A stretch of 12,397 bases of DNA, taken from the NCBI GenBank assembly GCA_044222065.1, contig JBGAOA010000091.1, forward strand, positions 1-12,397, read 5' to 3'. Each line of letters begins with the position of its first letter. Position 1 is the stretch's first letter. This document shows positions 2,426-9,583 of the stretch, in pieces. Source of the stretch: Candidatus Eiseniibacteriota bacterium. GTDB taxonomy: Bacteria > Eisenbacteria > RBG-16-71-46. The position numbers and the translations under genes were made by a program. The notes under the pieces are model-generated. The model made no database searches and had not been told where the DNA came from. It saw only the letters and a list, made by a program, of their open reading frames with translations.

Positions 2426-3604
2426 ATGCACGCGACGCTCACGCGCTGGTTCGGCCCGTCCCGCACGCTGCTCGCGCTGCGCCTCGCCATGACCGTGGCG
2501 TGGGGCTGGATCGCGATCACGACGCTGCTCGGGGCGCGGCCGCGCGGCGTTCCGACGGTCGTCGTCGCGGCGCTCGGCTTCGCCGCGTTCCTCGCGGCGC
2601 TGTGGATCACGCTGCTGCGCGCGCCGCGCTCGCGACCGACGGCGCTCCAGTGGGTCCTGCTCGGCGTCCAGGCGGCCGGGGCGTTCACGCTCGCGACCGA
2701 CCTCATGATGCTCGTCGCGATGGAGCTGCCGCTCGTGCTGCGGCCGCGCGTCGCCACGATCGCGTTCGTGTCGCTGCTCGCGGCGTCGGTGCTCGTCGGG
2801 CTCGCGCTCGCGCGCGCCGGCGCGTTCGTTCCCGCGGGCGAACTCGCGGGCCTCTCGGCCTCGCTGCAGGTCGTGCTGACGCTCGGGCTCGTCGCGGGCT
2901 GGCAGCTGCTCGCGTTCTGCGGCGGACTGCTCGCCGCGACCGAGATCCGCGCGCGCCGCGACGTGCACCGGCTGATGGCGGCGCTCAGGCTCGCGAACGC
3001 GCGCGTCGAGGAGTCGAGCCGCGAGGCCGAGCGGCTGCACATCGCGCGCGAGCTGCACGACACGGTCGGGCACCGGCTCGCCGCACTCGGCGTGAGCCTC
3101 GACTTGGAGAGCCGGCGCGCGGAGGGCGCCTCGGCCGCGTCGCTGCGCGAGGCACGCGACGCCACGCAGCAGCTGCTCGCCGAGGTGCGCGGCGTCGTCG
3201 GCACGATGCGGCAGGAGCGCGCGCTCGACCTGAAGCGCGCGATCGCGACGCTCGTCTCGAACCTCGGCGCGCTCGAGGTGGACCTCGCGATCTCGCCCGG
3301 GCTCGACGTGCGCGATCCCGCGACCGCCCACGCGCTCTACCGCGCCGCGCAGGAGGCGCTCACGAACGCGCTGCGGCACGCGCAGGCGACGCGCGTGCGG
3401 ATCGAGCTCAGGCAGGACGCGCGCGCGGTGACGCTCGCCGTGCGCGATGACGGCGACGGCGCCGCGGGGCCGCGCGAGGGGCACGGGCTCGCCGGGATGC
3501 GCGAGCGGCTCGAATCGCTCGGCGGCACGCTCGAGATCGAAACGTCCGCCGGGGCGGGCTTCGCGATCGTCGCGCGCGTGCCGCTCGCTCAGGAGGCGCG
3601 ATGA
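2426..3604 (+). CDS. Membrane sensor histidine kinase, HisKA_3 (NarX/DesK-like), 392 aa
   Basis: About 5 N-terminal hydrophobic segments. H-box ERLHIARELHDTVGH, N-box QEALTNALRHA, G1 DDGDG, G2 GHGLAGMRER. ATG at 2426 chosen over the GTG at 2393 used by the ORF track. Stop overlaps the next start (ATGA). Confidence 0.92.
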   Translation: MHATLTRWFGPSRTLLALRLAMTVAWGWIAITTLLGARPRGVPTVVVAALGFAAFLAALWITLLRAPRSRPTALQWVLLGVQAAGAFTLATDLMMLVAMELPLVLRPRVATIAFVSLLAASVLVGLALARAGAFVPAGELAGLSASLQVVLTLGLVAGWQLLAFCGGLLAATEIRARRDVHRLMAALRLANARVEESSREAERLHIARELHDTVGHRLAALGVSLDLESRRAEGASAASLREARDATQQLLAEVRGVVGTMRQERALDLKRAIATLVSNLGALEVDLAISPGLDVRDPATAHALYRAAQEALTNALRHAQATRVRIELRQDARAVTLAVRDDGDGAAGPREGHGLAGMRERLESLGGTLEIETSAGAGFAIVARVPLAQEAR

Positions 3605-4199
3605 TCCGCGTCCTGATCGCAGACGACCAGACGCTGCTGCGCCGCGGGCTCAAGGGCATGTTCGAGCTCACGCCCGACGTGCGCGCGAGCGCCACGAGGT
3701 GGACGTGCTGCTGCTCGACGTGCGGATGCCGAAGCGCACGGGGGTCGACGTGCTCGAGGAGCTGCGCCGCCGCGGCCGCGCGATTCCGGCGCTGCTGCTC
3801 ACGACGTTCGACGACGACGCGGCGCTGCTCGCCGGCGTGCGCGCCGGAGCGCGCGGCTGGTTGCTCAAGGACGTGGCCTTCGAGCGGCTCGCCGATGCCG
3901 TCCGCGCGCTCGCCGCCGGCGGCACGGTGCTGCTCCCGGCCGTGACCGAGCGCGCCGTGCGCGCGCTCACCGACGCGCCGCCGGCGTTCGAATCGCTCGA
4001 TCCGCCGGACCGACTCACCACCCGCGAGACCGAGATCCTGCGGCTGATGGCCGGCGGCTACAGCAATCGCGAGATCGCCGACGCGCTCCACTCGGGCGAG
4101 GGCACGGTCAAGAACCACATCTCGCACATCCTCTCGAAGCTCGGCGTGCGCGACCGCACGCGCGCGGTGCTGAAGGGCATCGAGCTCGGCTACGTGTGA
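3601..4199 (+). pseudogene. NarL/FixJ-family response regulator (REC + LuxR HTH), frameshifted by an internal deletion near 3685
   Basis: Frame from 3601 gives MIRVLIADDQTLLRRGLKGMFELTPDVR. The rest (ERHEVDVLLLDVRMP...LLTTFDDD...GWLLKD...LTTRETEILRLMAGGYSNREIADALHSGEGTVKNHISHILSKLGVRDRT) is in another frame ending TGA at 4199. The usual VVxEAxDGxEA segment is absent. Could be a real lesion or an assembly error. Confidence 0.85.
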
Positions 4200-4214: not shown

Positions 4215-4952
4215 TCACCGATACAAGGACTTGAGCGCGCCCCACGAACCGCGCTGCGCGGCCGTCGTCGTGTCGGGCCCGATGCAGATCGAGTGAGCGC
4301 CCGGCCGCGCGATCTGCGTGAAGTCCACGCCGAGCCCCTCGGTGGGCACGAGGATCCGCGGCCCCGTGGGCGGCGTGATCACGAGGACGTCCACCCCCTT
4401 CACGCACGCGTTCGGGCGCAGCGGCTCGATCGGATGGACGAGCGTGACGGCCACCTCGGTGCCGGGCGGGAGCAGCCGGTCGAGCGAGAGCACGTGTGCC
4501 GACATTCCCGGGTCGCAGACGATCGGACCGATTCCGGCCGGCAGCGCGAAGTTCGACGCCGGCTCGATGAGCACCGAGCCGCTCGCGGGAACGGACGGGG
4601 CGCTCCACAGTCCGAAAACGTTCCACGACGTCGGCCATTCGGCCAGCAGCGGATCCTGGCAGTCGAGCGTCATCGTGACGTCGGCGCCGGGAGCGAATCC
4701 GCATACGGTTGGAGTGATCCCGCCGGACAGTTCGCACTCGGCCCAGGTCCAGGTCGGAATCACGCAACCCGTCTCGTCGGCCGTGAAGGTGACCTGCCGC
4801 TGGAGCGGGAACAGCGCGACGGTGATCGTTCCGCCCCGACTCTCGCCGGTCTCGACCGGCACGAATCCGAGGAAGAGACAACCCTGAAGGAGCCCTGCGA
4901 GGGCGAGCGCGACGGTGGTGAACAACGGGCGGGCGAACGAACGACGGACCAT
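4215..4952 (-). CDS. Secreted Cys-rich hypothetical protein (possible lipoprotein) with C-terminal SWGxxKxxYR tail, 245 aa
   Basis: ATG at 4952 with GGAGGAG SD. Signal peptide ending LLQGC, 8 Cys in total, beta-rich composition, ends DTTTAAQRGSWGALKSLYR-stop. Confidence 0.8.
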   Translation of the reverse strand: MVRRSFARPLFTTVALALAGLLQGCLFLGFVPVETGESRGGTITVALFPLQRQVTFTADETGCVIPTWTWAECELSGGITPTVCGFAPGADVTMTLDCQDPLLAEWPTSWNVFGLWSAPSVPASGSVLIEPASNFALPAGIGPIVCDPGMSAHVLSLDRLLPPGTEVAVTLVHPIEPLRPNACVKGVDVLVITPPTGPRILVPTEGLGVDFTQIARPGAHSICIGPDTTTAAQRGSWGALKSLYR

Positions 4953-5111
4953 GCCATCTCCTCCGGACCGAGGGTGGGCATGCAGTCCGCGTGATTCGAG
5001 GCGCGGGGTGCGCGGTGCGCGACCCCAAAGGGGGATCGCCGGGTGAGACCGGTCCGCCCCCCGGGGAATCACACGGGCGGCGCGCCGCGGCGTCGGAGGT
5101 GCCTCGCCGCC

Positions 5112-6250: not shown

Positions 6251-6841
6251 ATGAGCCGCCCGTTCGCACCTCTCGCCCTCGTCAGCATCGTCGCGTGCCT
6301 CCTCGCCCTGCCCGCATCCCGGGCCGGCGCGGGCGCGCTCGCGATCACGCGCTGGACCGTGGACGGAGGCGGCCTGCGCTTCGTCCAGAGCGGACCGTTC
6401 GTGATGGGTGGAACGATCGGGCAGCCGGACGCCGGCCTGGTTTCGCGACTCAACTACGTGCTCGTCGGCGGCTTCTGGGTGCCCGGCGCGCCGGTCCCCG
6501 TGGGCGTGGACGGGAGCGAAGAGGGACCGCCGGGAGTGCCCGGGCCGCCACCCGGCGCGCCGCTCGAACTGCGCGTGTACCCCGCGGCCCCGAACCCATT
6601 CGCGGGGCTCACGTCGCTCGCGTTCGACCTGCCGGACGAGCGCCACTGCCGCGTGAACGTGTTCGACCTCGCCGGCGCGCACGTCGCGACGCTCGCGGAC
6701 GGGCGCTTCGGAGCGGGACACCACCGGCTCGAGTGGCGCACGCGCGACGCTCGCGGCCGGTCCGCCGGCCCCGGCCTCTACCTGCTCCGCGTCGAACTCG
6801 GCGCGCACGTCGAAACCCGGAAGCTCGTCATCCTTCATTGA
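6251..6841 (+). CDS. Small secreted protein: WTVDGGG...GTIGQPDAG...GGFW domain + Pro/Gly linker + T9SS type-A/FlgD Ig-like C-terminal domain, 196 aa
   Basis: Signal peptide MSRPFAPLALVSIVACLLALPASRAGA. Short Gly-rich domain at 6353-6478, linker PVGV...GPPGVPGPPPG. CTD motifs PNPF, FDL, VFDLAGAHVATL, LEW..RDARGR, GLYLLRV, TRKLVIL. Confidence 0.85.
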   Translation: MSRPFAPLALVSIVACLLALPASRAGAGALAITRWTVDGGGLRFVQSGPFVMGGTIGQPDAGLVSRLNYVLVGGFWVPGAPVPVGVDGSEEGPPGVPGPPPGAPLELRVYPAAPNPFAGLTSLAFDLPDERHCRVNVFDLAGAHVATLADGRFGAGHHRLEWRTRDARGRSAGPGLYLLRVELGAHVETRKLVILH

Positions 6842-6887
6842 GCCCGCATCACGCCCGGCCGCGCCGGACACCGAGGAGACCGATCCG

Positions 6888-8408
6888 ATGAACGTTCGTA
6901 CGCTGACCGCCCGCTCCGCGATCGCGCTCGTGTGCGCGCTGCTCGCGCCCGTCCCGGCTGCGCACGCCGGCGTTCCGATCGGCACGGCCTTCACGTACCA
7001 GGGCAGCCTGAGCGACGGGGGAGTGCCCGCGACCGGTGCGTACGACTTCAAGTTCACCCTCTACGACGCGCTCACCGGCGGCACGATCGTCGGCTCGACG
7101 CTCGTGCTCGACGACGTCCAGGTCGTGAGCGGCGTGTTCGCGGTCGATCTCGACTTCGGAGCGTCCGCCTACTACGCCGCCGAGGCGCGCTGGCTGCTGG
7201 TCGAGACGCGCGCCGGAAGTTCGACCGGCATCTACACCGCGCTGCCGCGGCAGCGCCTGAGCGCGACGCCGAGCGCGCTCGGTCTGTCGCTGCCCGTGAG
7301 CCAGCTCGCGCCGAGCAACTTCCCGTTGCTGACGCTCACGAACACCGGCATCGGATCGGGCGGCCTGTTCCTCTCCGGCGCGGGCACCACGCTCAATTAC
7401 GGGCTCGAGGGCATCACGCAGAGCAGCGCGTCGCAGTCGGCGGGCCTGCGCGGCTGGGCGACGGCGGCGAGCGGAAACGTGATCGGCGTCGAGGGCGTCG
7501 CGACCGCGTCTCCCTCGGGCACCGGCCTCGTCGGCACCGGCAGCGCGACCGGCGCCTACCTCTCGGCGACCGGCGCCAACTCGACCGGCCTCTACGCGTA
7601 CGGCTCGCTGCGGGGCATCTACGCGGAGAACACCTCGACCGGAGCGGCGATCGTCGCCGTCGGTCACGGTGGAACGGGCTCGGCGAGCGTGCAGGTGCAG
7701 AACAACGCCACGGGGCCCGCGATCTCGCTCACGGGCAAGGGATCGGCGGCGACGAACGCCACGCTGCAGGTCGAGAACACGAACGCCACCGACGGCATCG
7801 CCGCCTACGTCCGCAACTCGAGCGGCTTCGCCACCGCGCACCTGCGCAACGCGGGCTCGGGGCAGATCCTGTGGCTCGAGGACGCGGGCCCGAGCGGCGA
7901 CTTCATCGTCGCGACCGGCACGGGCGGGCTCAAGTTCTGGGTGGACGGAGCCGGCACCACGCACACGAAGGTGCTCGAGATCCTCGGCGGCGCCGACCTG
8001 TCCGAGACGTTCGACGTCGCGGACGACGAGGCGCCCGCGCCGGGTTCCGTCGTGAGCATCGACCCGGATCACGAGGGCCGGCTCACGCTGACCCGCGAGC
8101 CTTACGACCGCCGCGTCGCGGGCATCGTGAGCGGCGCCGGCGGCGTGAAGACGGGGATGCTGATGGGTCAGGCGGGCTCGGTCGCGAGCGGCGCGCACGC
8201 CGTCGCGCTCACCGGGCGCGTCTACTGCCGCGCGACCGCCGCGAATGGACCGATCCGGCCCGGGGACCTGCTCACGACGTCCGCCGTCGCGGGGTGCGCG
8301 ATGCGCGTGGACGATTCCGCGCGCGCCCAGGGCGCGATCCTCGGCAAGGCGATGGGCTCGCTCGAGGCGGGCGAAGGACTCGTGCTCGTGCTCGTGGGGC
8401 TGCAGTGA
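6888..8408 (+). CDS. Secreted fibre/tailspike-like protein: N-terminal FTYQG domain, GxxG beta-repeats, C-terminal Peptidase G2-like intramolecular chaperone, 506 aa
   Basis: GAGGAG SD and signal peptide ending AHA. TAFTYQGSL...GAYDFKFTLYDALTGG, repeats GLEG/GLRG/GVEG/GLVG/GLYA/GIYA, then GGADLSETF...PGSVVSID...VAGIVS...VALTGRVYC...GPIRPGDLLTTS...ILGKAM. Confidence 0.8.
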   Translation: MNVRTLTARSAIALVCALLAPVPAAHAGVPIGTAFTYQGSLSDGGVPATGAYDFKFTLYDALTGGTIVGSTLVLDDVQVVSGVFAVDLDFGASAYYAAEARWLLVETRAGSSTGIYTALPRQRLSATPSALGLSLPVSQLAPSNFPLLTLTNTGIGSGGLFLSGAGTTLNYGLEGITQSSASQSAGLRGWATAASGNVIGVEGVATASPSGTGLVGTGSATGAYLSATGANSTGLYAYGSLRGIYAENTSTGAAIVAVGHGGTGSASVQVQNNATGPAISLTGKGSAATNATLQVENTNATDGIAAYVRNSSGFATAHLRNAGSGQILWLEDAGPSGDFIVATGTGGLKFWVDGAGTTHTKVLEILGGADLSETFDVADDEAPAPGSVVSIDPDHEGRLTLTREPYDRRVAGIVSGAGGVKTGMLMGQAGSVASGAHAVALTGRVYCRATAANGPIRPGDLLTTSAVAGCAMRVDDSARAQGAILGKAMGSLEAGEGLVLVLVGLQ

Positions 8409-9583
8409 GGCTCGGGGCACGCGCGGCGCGCCGCGCGTGGGCGCCGGCCCTCGCGGCGCTGCTCCTCGCCGCGACCGCGTCCGCCGGCACGACGATCGGC
8501 ATCCGCGTTTCGGTGAAGGTGATCCTCGATCCGCTGACCGGCCAGCGCCCGCTCACGGCACAGGGCACGCCCATCACCGACTCCGAGATCGAGTCGATGT
8601 TCACGATGGCGAACGACACGTTGTTCACGACCTACCAGCGTGGCTACCGGTTCGTGCTCACCGGCCCGCCGCAGAACATCGGGTCGCCGTGCGCGATCTG
8701 CCCGGTCGGCAATCCGAGCCGCTGGTTCGCCGAGACGTTTCCCGAAGCGAACGCGGAAGGCCTCCTGCACGACTTCGAGGTGCTCGCCCTCAACAACGCC
8801 ACGTTCGGATGGGACCCGACCGCCGTGAACGTGTTCATCAACTCGGGCAAGGGCAACGGAGGCATCTCGTCGTTTCCCTTCCGCAGTTCGGGTTCGAACG
8901 CGCATCACCACGTCGTGTTCTGGGGCGGAACGCTCGTGGACGACGGCTTCGCGACGGCGTTTCCGGCGGCGATCGCACACCACGAGATCGGGCACTACTT
9001 CAACCTCTTCCACACGCACGACGGGCAACCGGCGTGCGTCGACACGCTGAGCTATCTGTGCTCGGCCTGCGAGGGGGCCCCGGTCGCGGCCGACAGCGTG
9101 CTCGACACGATCGAGGACCGGAGCTGTTCGCTGACCTGCCCGGGCTGCATCTCGGGCTGGCACACGGACGAACTGGCGCTCCACACGTACGGGGTGCCGT
9201 TCAACCAGCTCGGACCCGCGGAGGCGCAGGTCGTGCTCGACACGTACGAGAACAACATGTCGTACCACAATCACGTCAAGCCCTACGGTCGCGCGGTCAA
9301 CTACCGGATGACTGAAGGGCAGCTCGACCGCTGGGCGGACAACGCGAACAACGTGCGGCACGACGTCGTCACGGGGCGCACGCGCTTCGCCACCAGCTGT
9401 CCTTCGTGTGGGGGCAATGGCAGCAGCGCATCGCCCTTCGGCACCGTGTTCGCGGCGCACGCCGCGGCGAATCCCGGCGACATCCTGCTGCTGCGTCCGG
9501 GCAACTACGCCGAGACGCTGCTGCTCACGAAGCCGGTCACGCTGCGCGTCCCGCGCACCGGCACGGCGCGCATCGGGCAGTAG
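8405..9583 (+). CDS. Secreted zinc metalloprotease, M43 (pappalysin/ulilysin-like metzincin), with C-terminal DUF1565-like module, 392 aa
   Basis: GTG at 8405 overlaps the upstream stop (GTGA). Signal peptide ending ATASA, AVNVFIN strand, zinc motif HEIGHYFNLFHTH (from 8981), Met-turn NNMSY, MTEGQLDR. Tail GNGSSASPFGTVFAAHAAANPGDILLLRPGNYAE. Confidence 0.82.
   Translation: MRLGARAARRAWAPALAALLLAATASAGTTIGIRVSVKVILDPLTGQRPLTAQGTPITDSEIESMFTMANDTLFTTYQRGYRFVLTGPPQNIGSPCAICPVGNPSRWFAETFPEANAEGLLHDFEVLALNNATFGWDPTAVNVFINSGKGNGGISSFPFRSSGSNAHHHVVFWGGTLVDDGFATAFPAAIAHHEIGHYFNLFHTHDGQPACVDTLSYLCSACEGAPVAADSVLDTIEDRSCSLTCPGCISGWHTDELALHTYGVPFNQLGPAEAQVVLDTYENNMSYHNHVKPYGRAVNYRMTEGQLDRWADNANNVRHDVVTGRTRFATSCPSCGGNGSSASPFGTVFAAHAAANPGDILLLRPGNYAETLLLTKPVTLRVPRTGTARIGQ

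What the first reader, a model, noticed from the sequence alone, without database searches (positions are those of the whole stretch)
6251..9583. Candidate undescribed three-part surface-display system: CTD-tagged adaptor + self-chaperoned fibre + protease cargo
Seen: three co-oriented, tightly linked genes (46-nt gap, then GTGA overlap), all with Sec-type signal peptides. Only the first carries a T9SS/FlgD-like C-terminal domain, and it has almost nothing else (a ~42-aa WTVDGGG...GGFW module plus a Pro/Gly linker). The second is a fibre-like protein whose C-terminus is occupied by a phage-type chaperone domain. The third is a metzincin with a small terminal module. Established: T9SS cargo needs a C-terminal CTD, and phage-fibre intramolecular chaperones are C-terminal and cleave themselves off, so a fibre could not easily retain both. 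Inference: the small protein is an adaptor that binds the fibre's N-terminal FTYQG domain (e.g. by beta-strand complementation) and supplies the export/anchor tag in trans; the protease is passenger or maturase. From memory only, GGFW-type and FTYQG-type genes recur as neighbours in other phyla with different anchors; this needs verifying. No phage genes are present in the window.
Basis: partly seen in the sequence, partly recalled or inferred. Interest (0 to 1): 0.85.

Follow-up and report, generated by a model that had tools for sequence, protein, structure and literature searches.

The report
Plug-anchored fibre carrying tagged proteases
Three neighbouring bacterial genes encode a phage-like fibre, a tiny export-tagged protein predicted to plug into the fibre's three-fold base and likely hold it on the cell, and a protease whose short tail tag likely docks it on the fibre tip, a build-your-own surface display kit that recurs across several bacterial phyla.

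Summary
The ~50-aa GGFW module lies within 6 kb of an FTYQG fibre in 60 of 72 cases in this phylum and 36 of 44 in Chloroflexota, and within 8 kb in 62 of 80 multi-phylum loci. It carries a lineage-specific C-terminal anchor: here a T9SS CTD, in a genome with SprA, PorV and PorU. A complex prediction (0.91, best control 0.01) sets one GGFW module on three fibre bases, one strand each. The tip has the phi29 gp12 chaperone fold. Of 32 fibres with this tip, 25 have a neighbour ending in the same ~68-aa beta-helix-cap tag; 0 of 36 other fibres do. Tagged cargos span 13 peptidase families, so the protease is likely swappable cargo, not a maturase. Tip-tag binding, tip cleavage and homology to Bdellovibrio MAT fibres are untested, and a tip-tag sequence co-evolution test gave no signal. 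It is not a prophage. Seven literature searches found no description; this scan reported the same module before on other DNA (six earlier findings).

The parts
6251..6841 (+). Adaptor gene (196 aa): signal peptide, GGFW module, Pro/Gly linker, T9SS-type CTD
6338..6478 (+). GGFW plug module (aa 30-76), three Gly-flanked beta-strand pseudo-repeats; pLDDT 50-70 alone, at least 87 on the fibre-base trimer
6566..6838 (+). T9SS type A-like C-terminal domain (aa 106-196)
   Evidence: TIGR04183 at cut-off; 6za2 Z 12.2, 8qb1 Z 9.9, 8glk Z 9.8
6888..8408 (+). Fibre gene (506 aa): signal peptide, FTYQG base, Gly/Ala/Thr-rich stalk, gp12-CTD-fold tip; no CTD of its own
6972..7286 (+). FTYQG base domain (aa 29-133), Ig-like sandwich with no close solved relative; predicted trimer that takes the plug
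   Evidence: (best Z 6.9)
7287..7994 (+). Variable stalk, likely a triple beta-helix (weak Foldseek hits to the streptococcal phage hyaluronidase HylP, E about 1e-3)
   Evidence: trimer form inferred
7995..8405 (+). Tip domain C (D370-Q506), phi29 gp12 C-terminal fold; D370 aligns to gp12 residue 692, first of the released fragment; D-x-x-E kept in 75 of 79 tips
8405..9583 (+). Cargo gene (392 aa): signal peptide, M43 metzincin, terminal tag T; no CTD
8981..9013 (+). Zinc-binding motif H193-E194-H197-H203
   Evidence: sequence; PF05572
9380..9580 (+). Tag T (~68 aa), homologous to the N-terminal cap of right-handed beta-helices but placed at the extreme C-terminus, ending in a conserved G-x-[VA]-x-[IL]-G strand
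   Evidence: 1ru4 17-73, E 3.6e-5

Best explanation
This is a three-gene secreted module in which the small protein's GGFW part is predicted to plug into the base of a trimeric fibre and likely anchors it to the cell through its T9SS tail, while the protease likely docks on the fibre tip through its C-terminal tag. Shown: the genes, the domains, the co-occurrence, that only the adaptor has a sorting tail, and SprA, PorV and PorU in the genome. Predicted: the three strands of one GGFW module (W35-V37, F50-T55, Y69-G74) each pair with the FTYQG strand of a different fibre chain, so one CTD serves one trimer. Inferred steps: (1) all three proteins cross the inner membrane by Sec; (2) the fibre trimerises, helped by the gp12-like tip; (3) the plug folds on the base and its CTD routes or fixes the complex through SprA/PorV/PorU, while other phyla swap in their own tail on the same plug; (4) the tip trimer, cut or not, stays on the stalk and captures the tag's terminal strand, as the same fold in phi29 gp8.5 captures C-terminal strands of its partners; (5) the cell thus holds interchangeable hydrolases, mostly proteases, away from its surface for contact digestion of protein or prey. 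My odds: plug binds base 0.88; it anchors rather than only escorts 0.75; tag binds the fibre tip 0.65.
For: Adjacency. Own genome: 3 of 3 strong GGFW genes directly precede an FTYQG gene; the two weaker FTYQG genes are followed by a divergent and an apparently frameshifted adaptor-CTD. Own phylum, 121 genomes: 60 of 72 GGFW have FTYQG on the same strand within 6 kb (about 0.35 expected) and 59 of 68 strong FTYQG have GGFW. Chloroflexota, 81 genomes: 11 have both, 1 and 1 only one, 68 neither; 36 of 44 and 42 of 62 adjacent. Best 80 of 551 GTDB loci: 62 have FTYQG within 8 kb. Anchors on 120 GGFW proteins, by regex: 22 FlgD/T9SS-CTD, 51 dockerin-like, 30 YLPL-type, 10 FYRL-type, 1 DGF-type, 5 other, 1 truncated; one SLH among 14 long forms. 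In own-phylum loci a CTD is on 69 of 71 adaptor ORFs, 0 of 68 fibre ORFs and 0 of 53 tagged cargos. Complex: 0.91, best of 3 controls 0.01; the mark was reached by 116 of 157 solved complexes and 2 of 215 mismatched pairs, counts that hold only roughly for this three-copy job with my own alignments; runs agree in at least 95% of contacts, partner pLDDT at least 87; no like solved complex was found by sequence. G and F distances correlate over 44 loci (rho 0.36, partial 0.35, 0 of 300 permutations; shared ancestry contributes). Tip-tag: 25 of 32 tip-bearing fibres vs 0 of 36 others have a tag within 8 kb; 16 of 16 tag loci have the tip and 0 of 55 tip-less loci have a tag. On the tip tree a basal clade (6 of 6) has no tagged neighbour, 69 of 73 derived tips have one, and a distinct tip clade (8 of 8, support 96, two phyla) goes with a different tail U. 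Cargos: 60 of 86 scanned entries are peptidases of 13 families, 4 beta-lactamase-fold, 8 other, 14 no hit; one gene counted twice. Precedent: gp8.5 N-base (Z 8.4 to the tip) has its missing strands completed by partner C-termini (PMC6542822, passages).
Against: No wet-lab evidence. Tip-tag binding was not modelled (the single complex job went to plug-base). Tag and tip distances do not correlate (rho 0.04; 84 of 300 permutations as high). The tip keeps the D-x-x-E motif (75 of 79), and in phi29 this domain is cut off and absent from the virion (PMC9863714, PMC6542822 passages), which conflicts with a retained dock. Many fibres have no adjacent adaptor: 3 of 18 in one Phycisphaerae genome and only 7 of 74 weak FTYQG hits with the narrow first model; 3 GGFW loci with full flanks lack a fibre (L042, L050, L109). 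One tag-like tail follows a fibre with another tip (L080). Four viral-contig tips of the derived type have no tag nearby. GldM, GldN and PorP were not found in the genome, but the controls were silent too. Kin are not independent, 5 tag seeds came from the phylum then tested, and some tails were added to the tag model by eye. How a folded fibre plus cargo passes SprA is unexplained.
Confidence: 0.68

Rival explanations
1. The plug anchors the fibre as above, but the tip is a true self-cleaving chaperone that leaves. The tag then caps the newly exposed stalk end, or tip and protease leave together as a released package.
For: Fold match to gp12 CTD with D370 at the first residue of the released fragment (mature gp12* ends at 691); D-x-x-E in 75 of 79; the tag is itself a beta-helix cap.
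Against: Cargo-less tips form their own clade with a different loop and the U tail goes with its own tip clade, which points to the tip surface. Residue 369 is mostly Ala, not the Ser of gp12, although phage relatives also have Ala.
Confidence: 0.14
2. The GGFW protein is only an assembly or export escort: it templates trimerisation or lends its secretion tag, and the fibre is then shed.
For: The module is poorly folded alone; T9SS CTDs can also direct release (recalled); more fibres than adaptors in some genomes.
Against: In other lineages the same module carries dockerin-like, SLH and IPTL-like tails that read as attachment modules, and it persists in Chloroflexota.
Confidence: 0.1
3. The tagged protease is a dedicated maturase that trims the fibre or the adaptor.
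For: Most tagged neighbours are proteases in tight operons with the fibre.
Against: 13 unrelated peptidase families fill the slot, several loci have 2-3 tagged genes, and Vps10/BNR, FG-GAP and formamidase-like proteins carry the same tag.
Confidence: 0.06
4. The fibre is a prophage or tailocin remnant and the neighbours are incidental.
For: The tip fold is common in phage fibres.
Against: All three genes have signal peptides; no G or F relative in viral contigs or GenBank phages; none of 15 viral tip loci has F, G, T or U; no phage structural genes among the window neighbours scanned.
Confidence: 0.02

Closest known systems
Bdellovibrio bacteriovorus MAT (mosaic adhesive trimer) fibres (Caulton et al. 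2024, PMC10769870; passages read)
   Same: [quoted passage not shown]
   Different: Homology of FTYQG to the MAT base could not be tested (a similar TYQG motif in MATs is recalled only). This tip is gp12-CTD-like, not S74. No adaptor or tagged cargo is described for MATs in the passages seen or in the 2026 review passages (PMC13689555).
phi29 gp12 C-terminal intramolecular chaperone (PDB 3GQH, 3SUC) and the same fold in gp8.5 N-base and capsid decoration proteins
   Same: Tip fold (Z 13.2; gp8.5 Z 8.4), position after a beta-rich stalk, D-x-x-E at the junction.
   Different: Not in a phage; Pfam Peptidase_G2 is not hit; the derived tips track a cargo tag.
T9SS type A CTD substrates and PorU/PorV sorting
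   Same: CTD sequence and fold on the adaptor; SprA, PorV and PorU in the genome; 142 ORFs end in such a CTD.
   Different: The tag sits on a 50-aa plug and would serve CTD-less partners in trans; the Gld motor and ring were not detected.
Cellulosome (cohesin-dockerin scaffolds; recalled)
   Same: Logic: anchor, scaffold, and interchangeable enzymes loaded through a small terminal tag.
   Different: Unrelated folds, a trimeric fibre as scaffold, mainly proteases as cargo.

Membership tests
MAT fibres | [quoted passage not shown] | tested here: met
   105-aa FTYQG sandwich right after the signal peptide; architecture only
MAT fibres | Sequence or fold homology of that domain to the Bdellovibrio MAT N-terminal domain | not testable with these tools
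   No Bdellovibrio sequence reached; no motif text in the readable supplements and one supplement file unreadable; no PDB hit
MAT fibres | Homotrimer with mosaic tips | tested here: inconclusive
   Base modelled as a trimer, pLDDT 92-93; tips vary widely across loci; full-length trimer not modelled
MAT fibres (S74 group) | C-terminal S74 chaperone with SDxxxK | tested here: not met
   No PF13884 hit; junction is A-D-L-S-E with the gp12-CTD fold. The NS74 group has no such requirement
phi29 gp12-type intramolecular chaperone | Beta-stranded CTD fold at the fibre C-terminus | tested here: met
   3gqh Z 13.2, rmsd 2.7, 112 aligned; 3suc Foldseek E 7e-4; tied within 1 Z with a viral capsid protein 8qsy (12.4)
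phi29 gp12-type intramolecular chaperone | Catalytic acidic residue after the cut (E695 in gp12: recalled, not seen in a paper) | tested here: inconclusive
   D370 aligns to 692; E373 invariant in 112 sequences; D-x-x-E in 75 of 79; PF11962 not hit
phi29 gp12-type intramolecular chaperone | Self-cleavage and release | not testable with these tools
   needs protein work
T9SS type A substrate (adaptor) | Signal peptide plus C-terminal CTD | tested here: met
T9SS type A substrate (adaptor) | Host encodes SprA, PorV, PorU | tested here: met
   SprA_N 89 bits (cut-off 27), PorV 8 genes over cut-off, PorU 469.5 (420)
T9SS type A substrate (adaptor) | Host encodes GldKLMN and PorP | tested here: inconclusive
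   GldM, GldN, PorP not found, controls silent, genome 94% complete; GldK and GldL not searched
M43 metzincin (cargo) | Extended zinc motif and Pfam match | tested here: met
   PF05572 over cut-off; H193, E194, H197, H203, with Asn for the usual Gly
Prophage tail-fibre module | Relatives in viral genomes, flanked by virion genes | tested here: not met
Cellulosome | Cohesin scaffold and dockerin-tagged enzymes | tested here: not met
   No cohesin or dockerin Pfam in the three window proteins; dockerin-like tails occur only on the adaptor in Planctomycetota

The most novel reading that the evidence does not exclude
A pan-bacterial, three-part surface display kit: a pseudo-three-fold 50-residue plug couples any lineage's sorting signal to any trimeric FTYQG fibre (and may be the missing anchor of Bdellovibrio MAT fibres), and a phage chaperone fold has been turned into a retained tip dock that loads proteases and other enzymes through an orphan beta-helix-cap tag, with a second orthogonal tip-tag pair in one clade.
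Probability: 0.5. Interest if true: 0.9.

Novelty: categorically new. Interest (0 to 1): 0.8.

Why it matters
It would explain how trimeric fibres whose C-terminus is occupied by a tip get onto the cell: one small plug with a swappable sorting tail, with a concrete 1:3 structural model to test. If the base is related to the MAT base, it addresses the open anchor question stated by Caulton et al. It would be a case of T9SS-type export or anchoring in trans outside Bacteroidota. It would show a phage chaperone fold reused as an enzyme dock, a cellulosome-like design for proteases. The plug also works as a reporter: its fused tails list candidate sorting signals in poorly known phyla. A cultured organism, Herpetosiphon aurantiacus, carries the fibre-plug pair (plug unannotated), so the anchor step is testable.

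Tried and rejected
Pfam, NCBIfam, PHROGs and PDB sequence searches gave nothing for the fibre, the base or the plug. PF11962 is not hit in the genome. ESM Atlas: plug hits under 0.9; base hits 0.90-0.93 to unnamed Verrucomicrobiota and Bacteroidota clusters, a lead only. No plug-fibre fusion among 14 long GGFW proteins (weak evidence). The base has no fold match above Z 6.9 in the full-length model and was not folded alone. The library-wide tag search was swamped by ordinary beta-helix caps: 13 of the top 150 had a terminal tag, so tag counts rest on locus context. The tag-tip distance correlation was null. MAT homology could not be tested. The deeper base alignment could not be used on viral contigs, so that negative rests on a three-sequence model and one tblastn. 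The careful tip tree did not finish; the quick tree was used. The metagenome scan and read tools were not used.
Full report
Observation. The three ORFs, the 46-nt gap, the GTGA overlap and the signal-peptide-like N-termini are as described. Gene 1 is a GGFW module (G) plus a CTD that passes TIGR04183 at its cut-off and folds like the PorU CTD (Z 12.2). Gene 2 has an FTYQG base (F), a variable stalk and a tip (C) with the fold of the phi29 gp12 C-terminal fragment. Gene 3 is an M43 metzincin with a terminal tag (T). The genome is 4.2 Mb, 72% GC and 94% complete; a close relative of the fibre is named Candidatus Eisenbacteria.

G and F travel together. In the own genome the three strong G genes each precede an F gene, and the two weaker F genes are followed by a divergent and an apparently frameshifted adaptor. 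In 121 genomes of the phylum, 60 of 72 G matches have F on the same strand within 6 kb (about 0.35 expected), in either order. Of 68 strong F matches 59 have G; of 74 weak ones only 7 do with this three-sequence model. In 81 Chloroflexota genomes, 11 have both, 68 neither and 2 only one; 36 of 44 G and 42 of 62 F are adjacent. Of the best 80 of 551 GTDB loci (Planctomycetota, Chloroflexota, Verrucomicrobiota, Eisenbacteria and others), 62 have F within 8 kb; 3 of the other 18 have full flanks. One Phycisphaerae genome has 18 F and 3 G, so adjacency is not obligatory: plugs are shared, or divergent ones are missed. Kin are not independent, so these counts overstate significance.

Only G carries the sorting tail, and the tail follows the lineage. 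Among 120 G proteins: 22 T9SS/FlgD-type, 51 dockerin-like, 30 YLPL-type, 10 FYRL-type, 1 DGF-type, 5 other (one IPTL-like) and 1 truncated (regex); one SLH form among 14 long ones. Named loci tie dockerin-like tails to Planctomycetota, YLPL to Chloroflexota and FYRL to Verrucomicrobiota. That YLPL, FYRL and DGF tails are sorting signals is recalled or inferred, not from a call. In own-phylum loci a CTD is on 69 of 71 G ORFs, 0 of 68 F ORFs and 0 of 53 T ORFs. The genome has SprA, eight PorV-family genes and PorU over cut-off and 142 ORFs ending in a CTD; GldM, GldN and PorP were not found, with silent controls.

Predicted interface. G alone is poorly ordered (pLDDT 50-70). Three copies of F (aa 27-160) with one G (aa 27-82) scored 0.91, best of three controls 0.01. 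The mark was reached by 116 of 157 solved complexes and 2 of 215 mismatched pairs; these counts hold only roughly for a multi-copy job with my alignments. Runs agree in at least 95% of contacts and partner pLDDT is at least 87. G strands W35-V37, F50-T55 and Y69-G74 each pair with the Y37-L41 strand of a different F copy, matching the three pseudo-repeats in the alignment. No solved relative of F or G was found by sequence, which makes recall of a known complex less likely. The model supports binding; it does not show it. G and F distances also correlate over 44 loci.

The tip tracks a cargo tag. A second own-genome locus has the same tip followed by two different secreted proteins (one a weak M10 hit) ending in the same kind of tail. 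A tag model seeded on 11 tails found tags in 16 of 80 GTDB loci, all with the tip, and in none of 55 tip-less loci (8 seeds came from these loci). In the own phylum 25 of 32 tip-bearing fibres and 0 of 36 others have a tag nearby, and 32 of 36 strong tag hits lie next to a tip on the same strand (5 seeds from this phylum; 37 weak tag rows were not listed and only 78 rows were used). Most exceptions resolve on the tip tree (79 tips, quick tree): a basal clade has no tagged neighbour (6 of 6), a separate clade in two phyla goes with a different tail U on C10-type peptidases (8 of 8), and 69 of 73 derived tips have T or U. T is homologous to the N-terminal cap of right-handed beta-helices (1ru4) but sits at the extreme C-terminus. 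Of 86 scanned cargo entries, 60 are peptidases (S1, S8, S53, C1, C10, C11, M4, M6, M10, M12, M36, M43, M66), 4 beta-lactamase-fold, 8 other (Vps10/BNR, FG-GAP, formamidase-like) and 14 unassigned. This favours swappable cargo over a maturase. Against: T and C distances do not correlate, L080 has a tag-like tail after another tip, and tip-tag binding was not modelled.

Is the tip cut off? D370 aligns to gp12 residue 692, mature gp12* ends at 691 (PMC6542822, passages), the chaperone is absent from the virion (PMC9863714, passages), and D-x-x-E is kept in 75 of 79 tips. The catalytic role of E695 and an ATP need for release are recalled, not seen. Cleavage is therefore plausible. The same fold in gp8.5 is a trimeric base completed by partner C-terminal strands, which fits a tag ending in a conserved strand. 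I favour a retained dock (inferred) and keep release as the main rival.

Not phage. No G or F relative was found in IMG/VR or GenBank phages. The tip has 15 viral loci, none with F, G, T or U. Window neighbours are ordinary genes.

Literature. Passages read: PMC10769870 (supplement search empty, one file unreadable and possibly relevant to MAT homology), PMC13689555, PMC8326128, PMC9863714, PMC4690869, PMC6542822. Searches (listings and abstract starts only) showed no description of the plug or the tag; the library lacks most subscription papers. This scan reported the module on other DNA in six earlier findings; my reading was noted before looking, I took the word 'plug' from them, and they are not independent support.

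Verdict. A real, widespread and apparently undescribed module. Added here: the 1:3 plug model, the tip-tag rule with a second tip-tail pair, and T9SS genes in the host. If the base proves homologous to the MAT base, the fibre itself is a variant of a known family, while plug and tag remain new. Interest 0.8.

Noticed in passing
window 4215-5072 (-): A 285-aa lipoprotein-like protein with no Pfam hit ends in a short W-G-x-L-K-x-x-Y-R motif; 39 ORFs of the genome end in this motif, possibly a second sorting signal.
   Followed up: partly
window 3601-4199 (+): The response regulator next to the sensor kinase is split over two frames (ORFs 3601-3945 and 3447-4199): frameshift or assembly error.
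   Followed up: no
L001 (G000:C10), L114, L117, L123: Genes ending in a CHAT-domain-like motif (name recalled) lie upstream of, or near, several fibre or tagged-cargo loci, hinting at a shared regulator.
   Followed up: no
L133:7650-8243 (Herpetosiphon aurantiacus pHAU01, after Haur_5099): An unannotated GGFW gene follows the FTYQG fibre in a cultured organism.
   Followed up: partly
P0278, P0280, P0283, P0288, P0314, P0339, P0349, P0355, P0361, P0405: Ten proteins end in two or three tandem tags (four with three), as if to fill several sites of a trimer; P0339 also has a fibre-like N-terminus and a partial tip, possibly a chimera.
   Followed up: partly
L174-L177: Short fibres without an FTYQG base in viral contigs carry the derived tip type but no tag within the flanks.
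   Followed up: partly
P0145; L086: One protein has two GGFW modules in tandem with an IPTL-like tail; one locus has two adjacent GGFW genes and no fibre found.
   Followed up: no
L131, L132: Pairs of weak-FTYQG fibres sit next to a CTD protein with no detectable GGFW module, perhaps a different adaptor.
   Followed up: no
G000:C20:60660-62740 (-): A fibre and its adaptor-CTD appear frameshifted.
   Followed up: no
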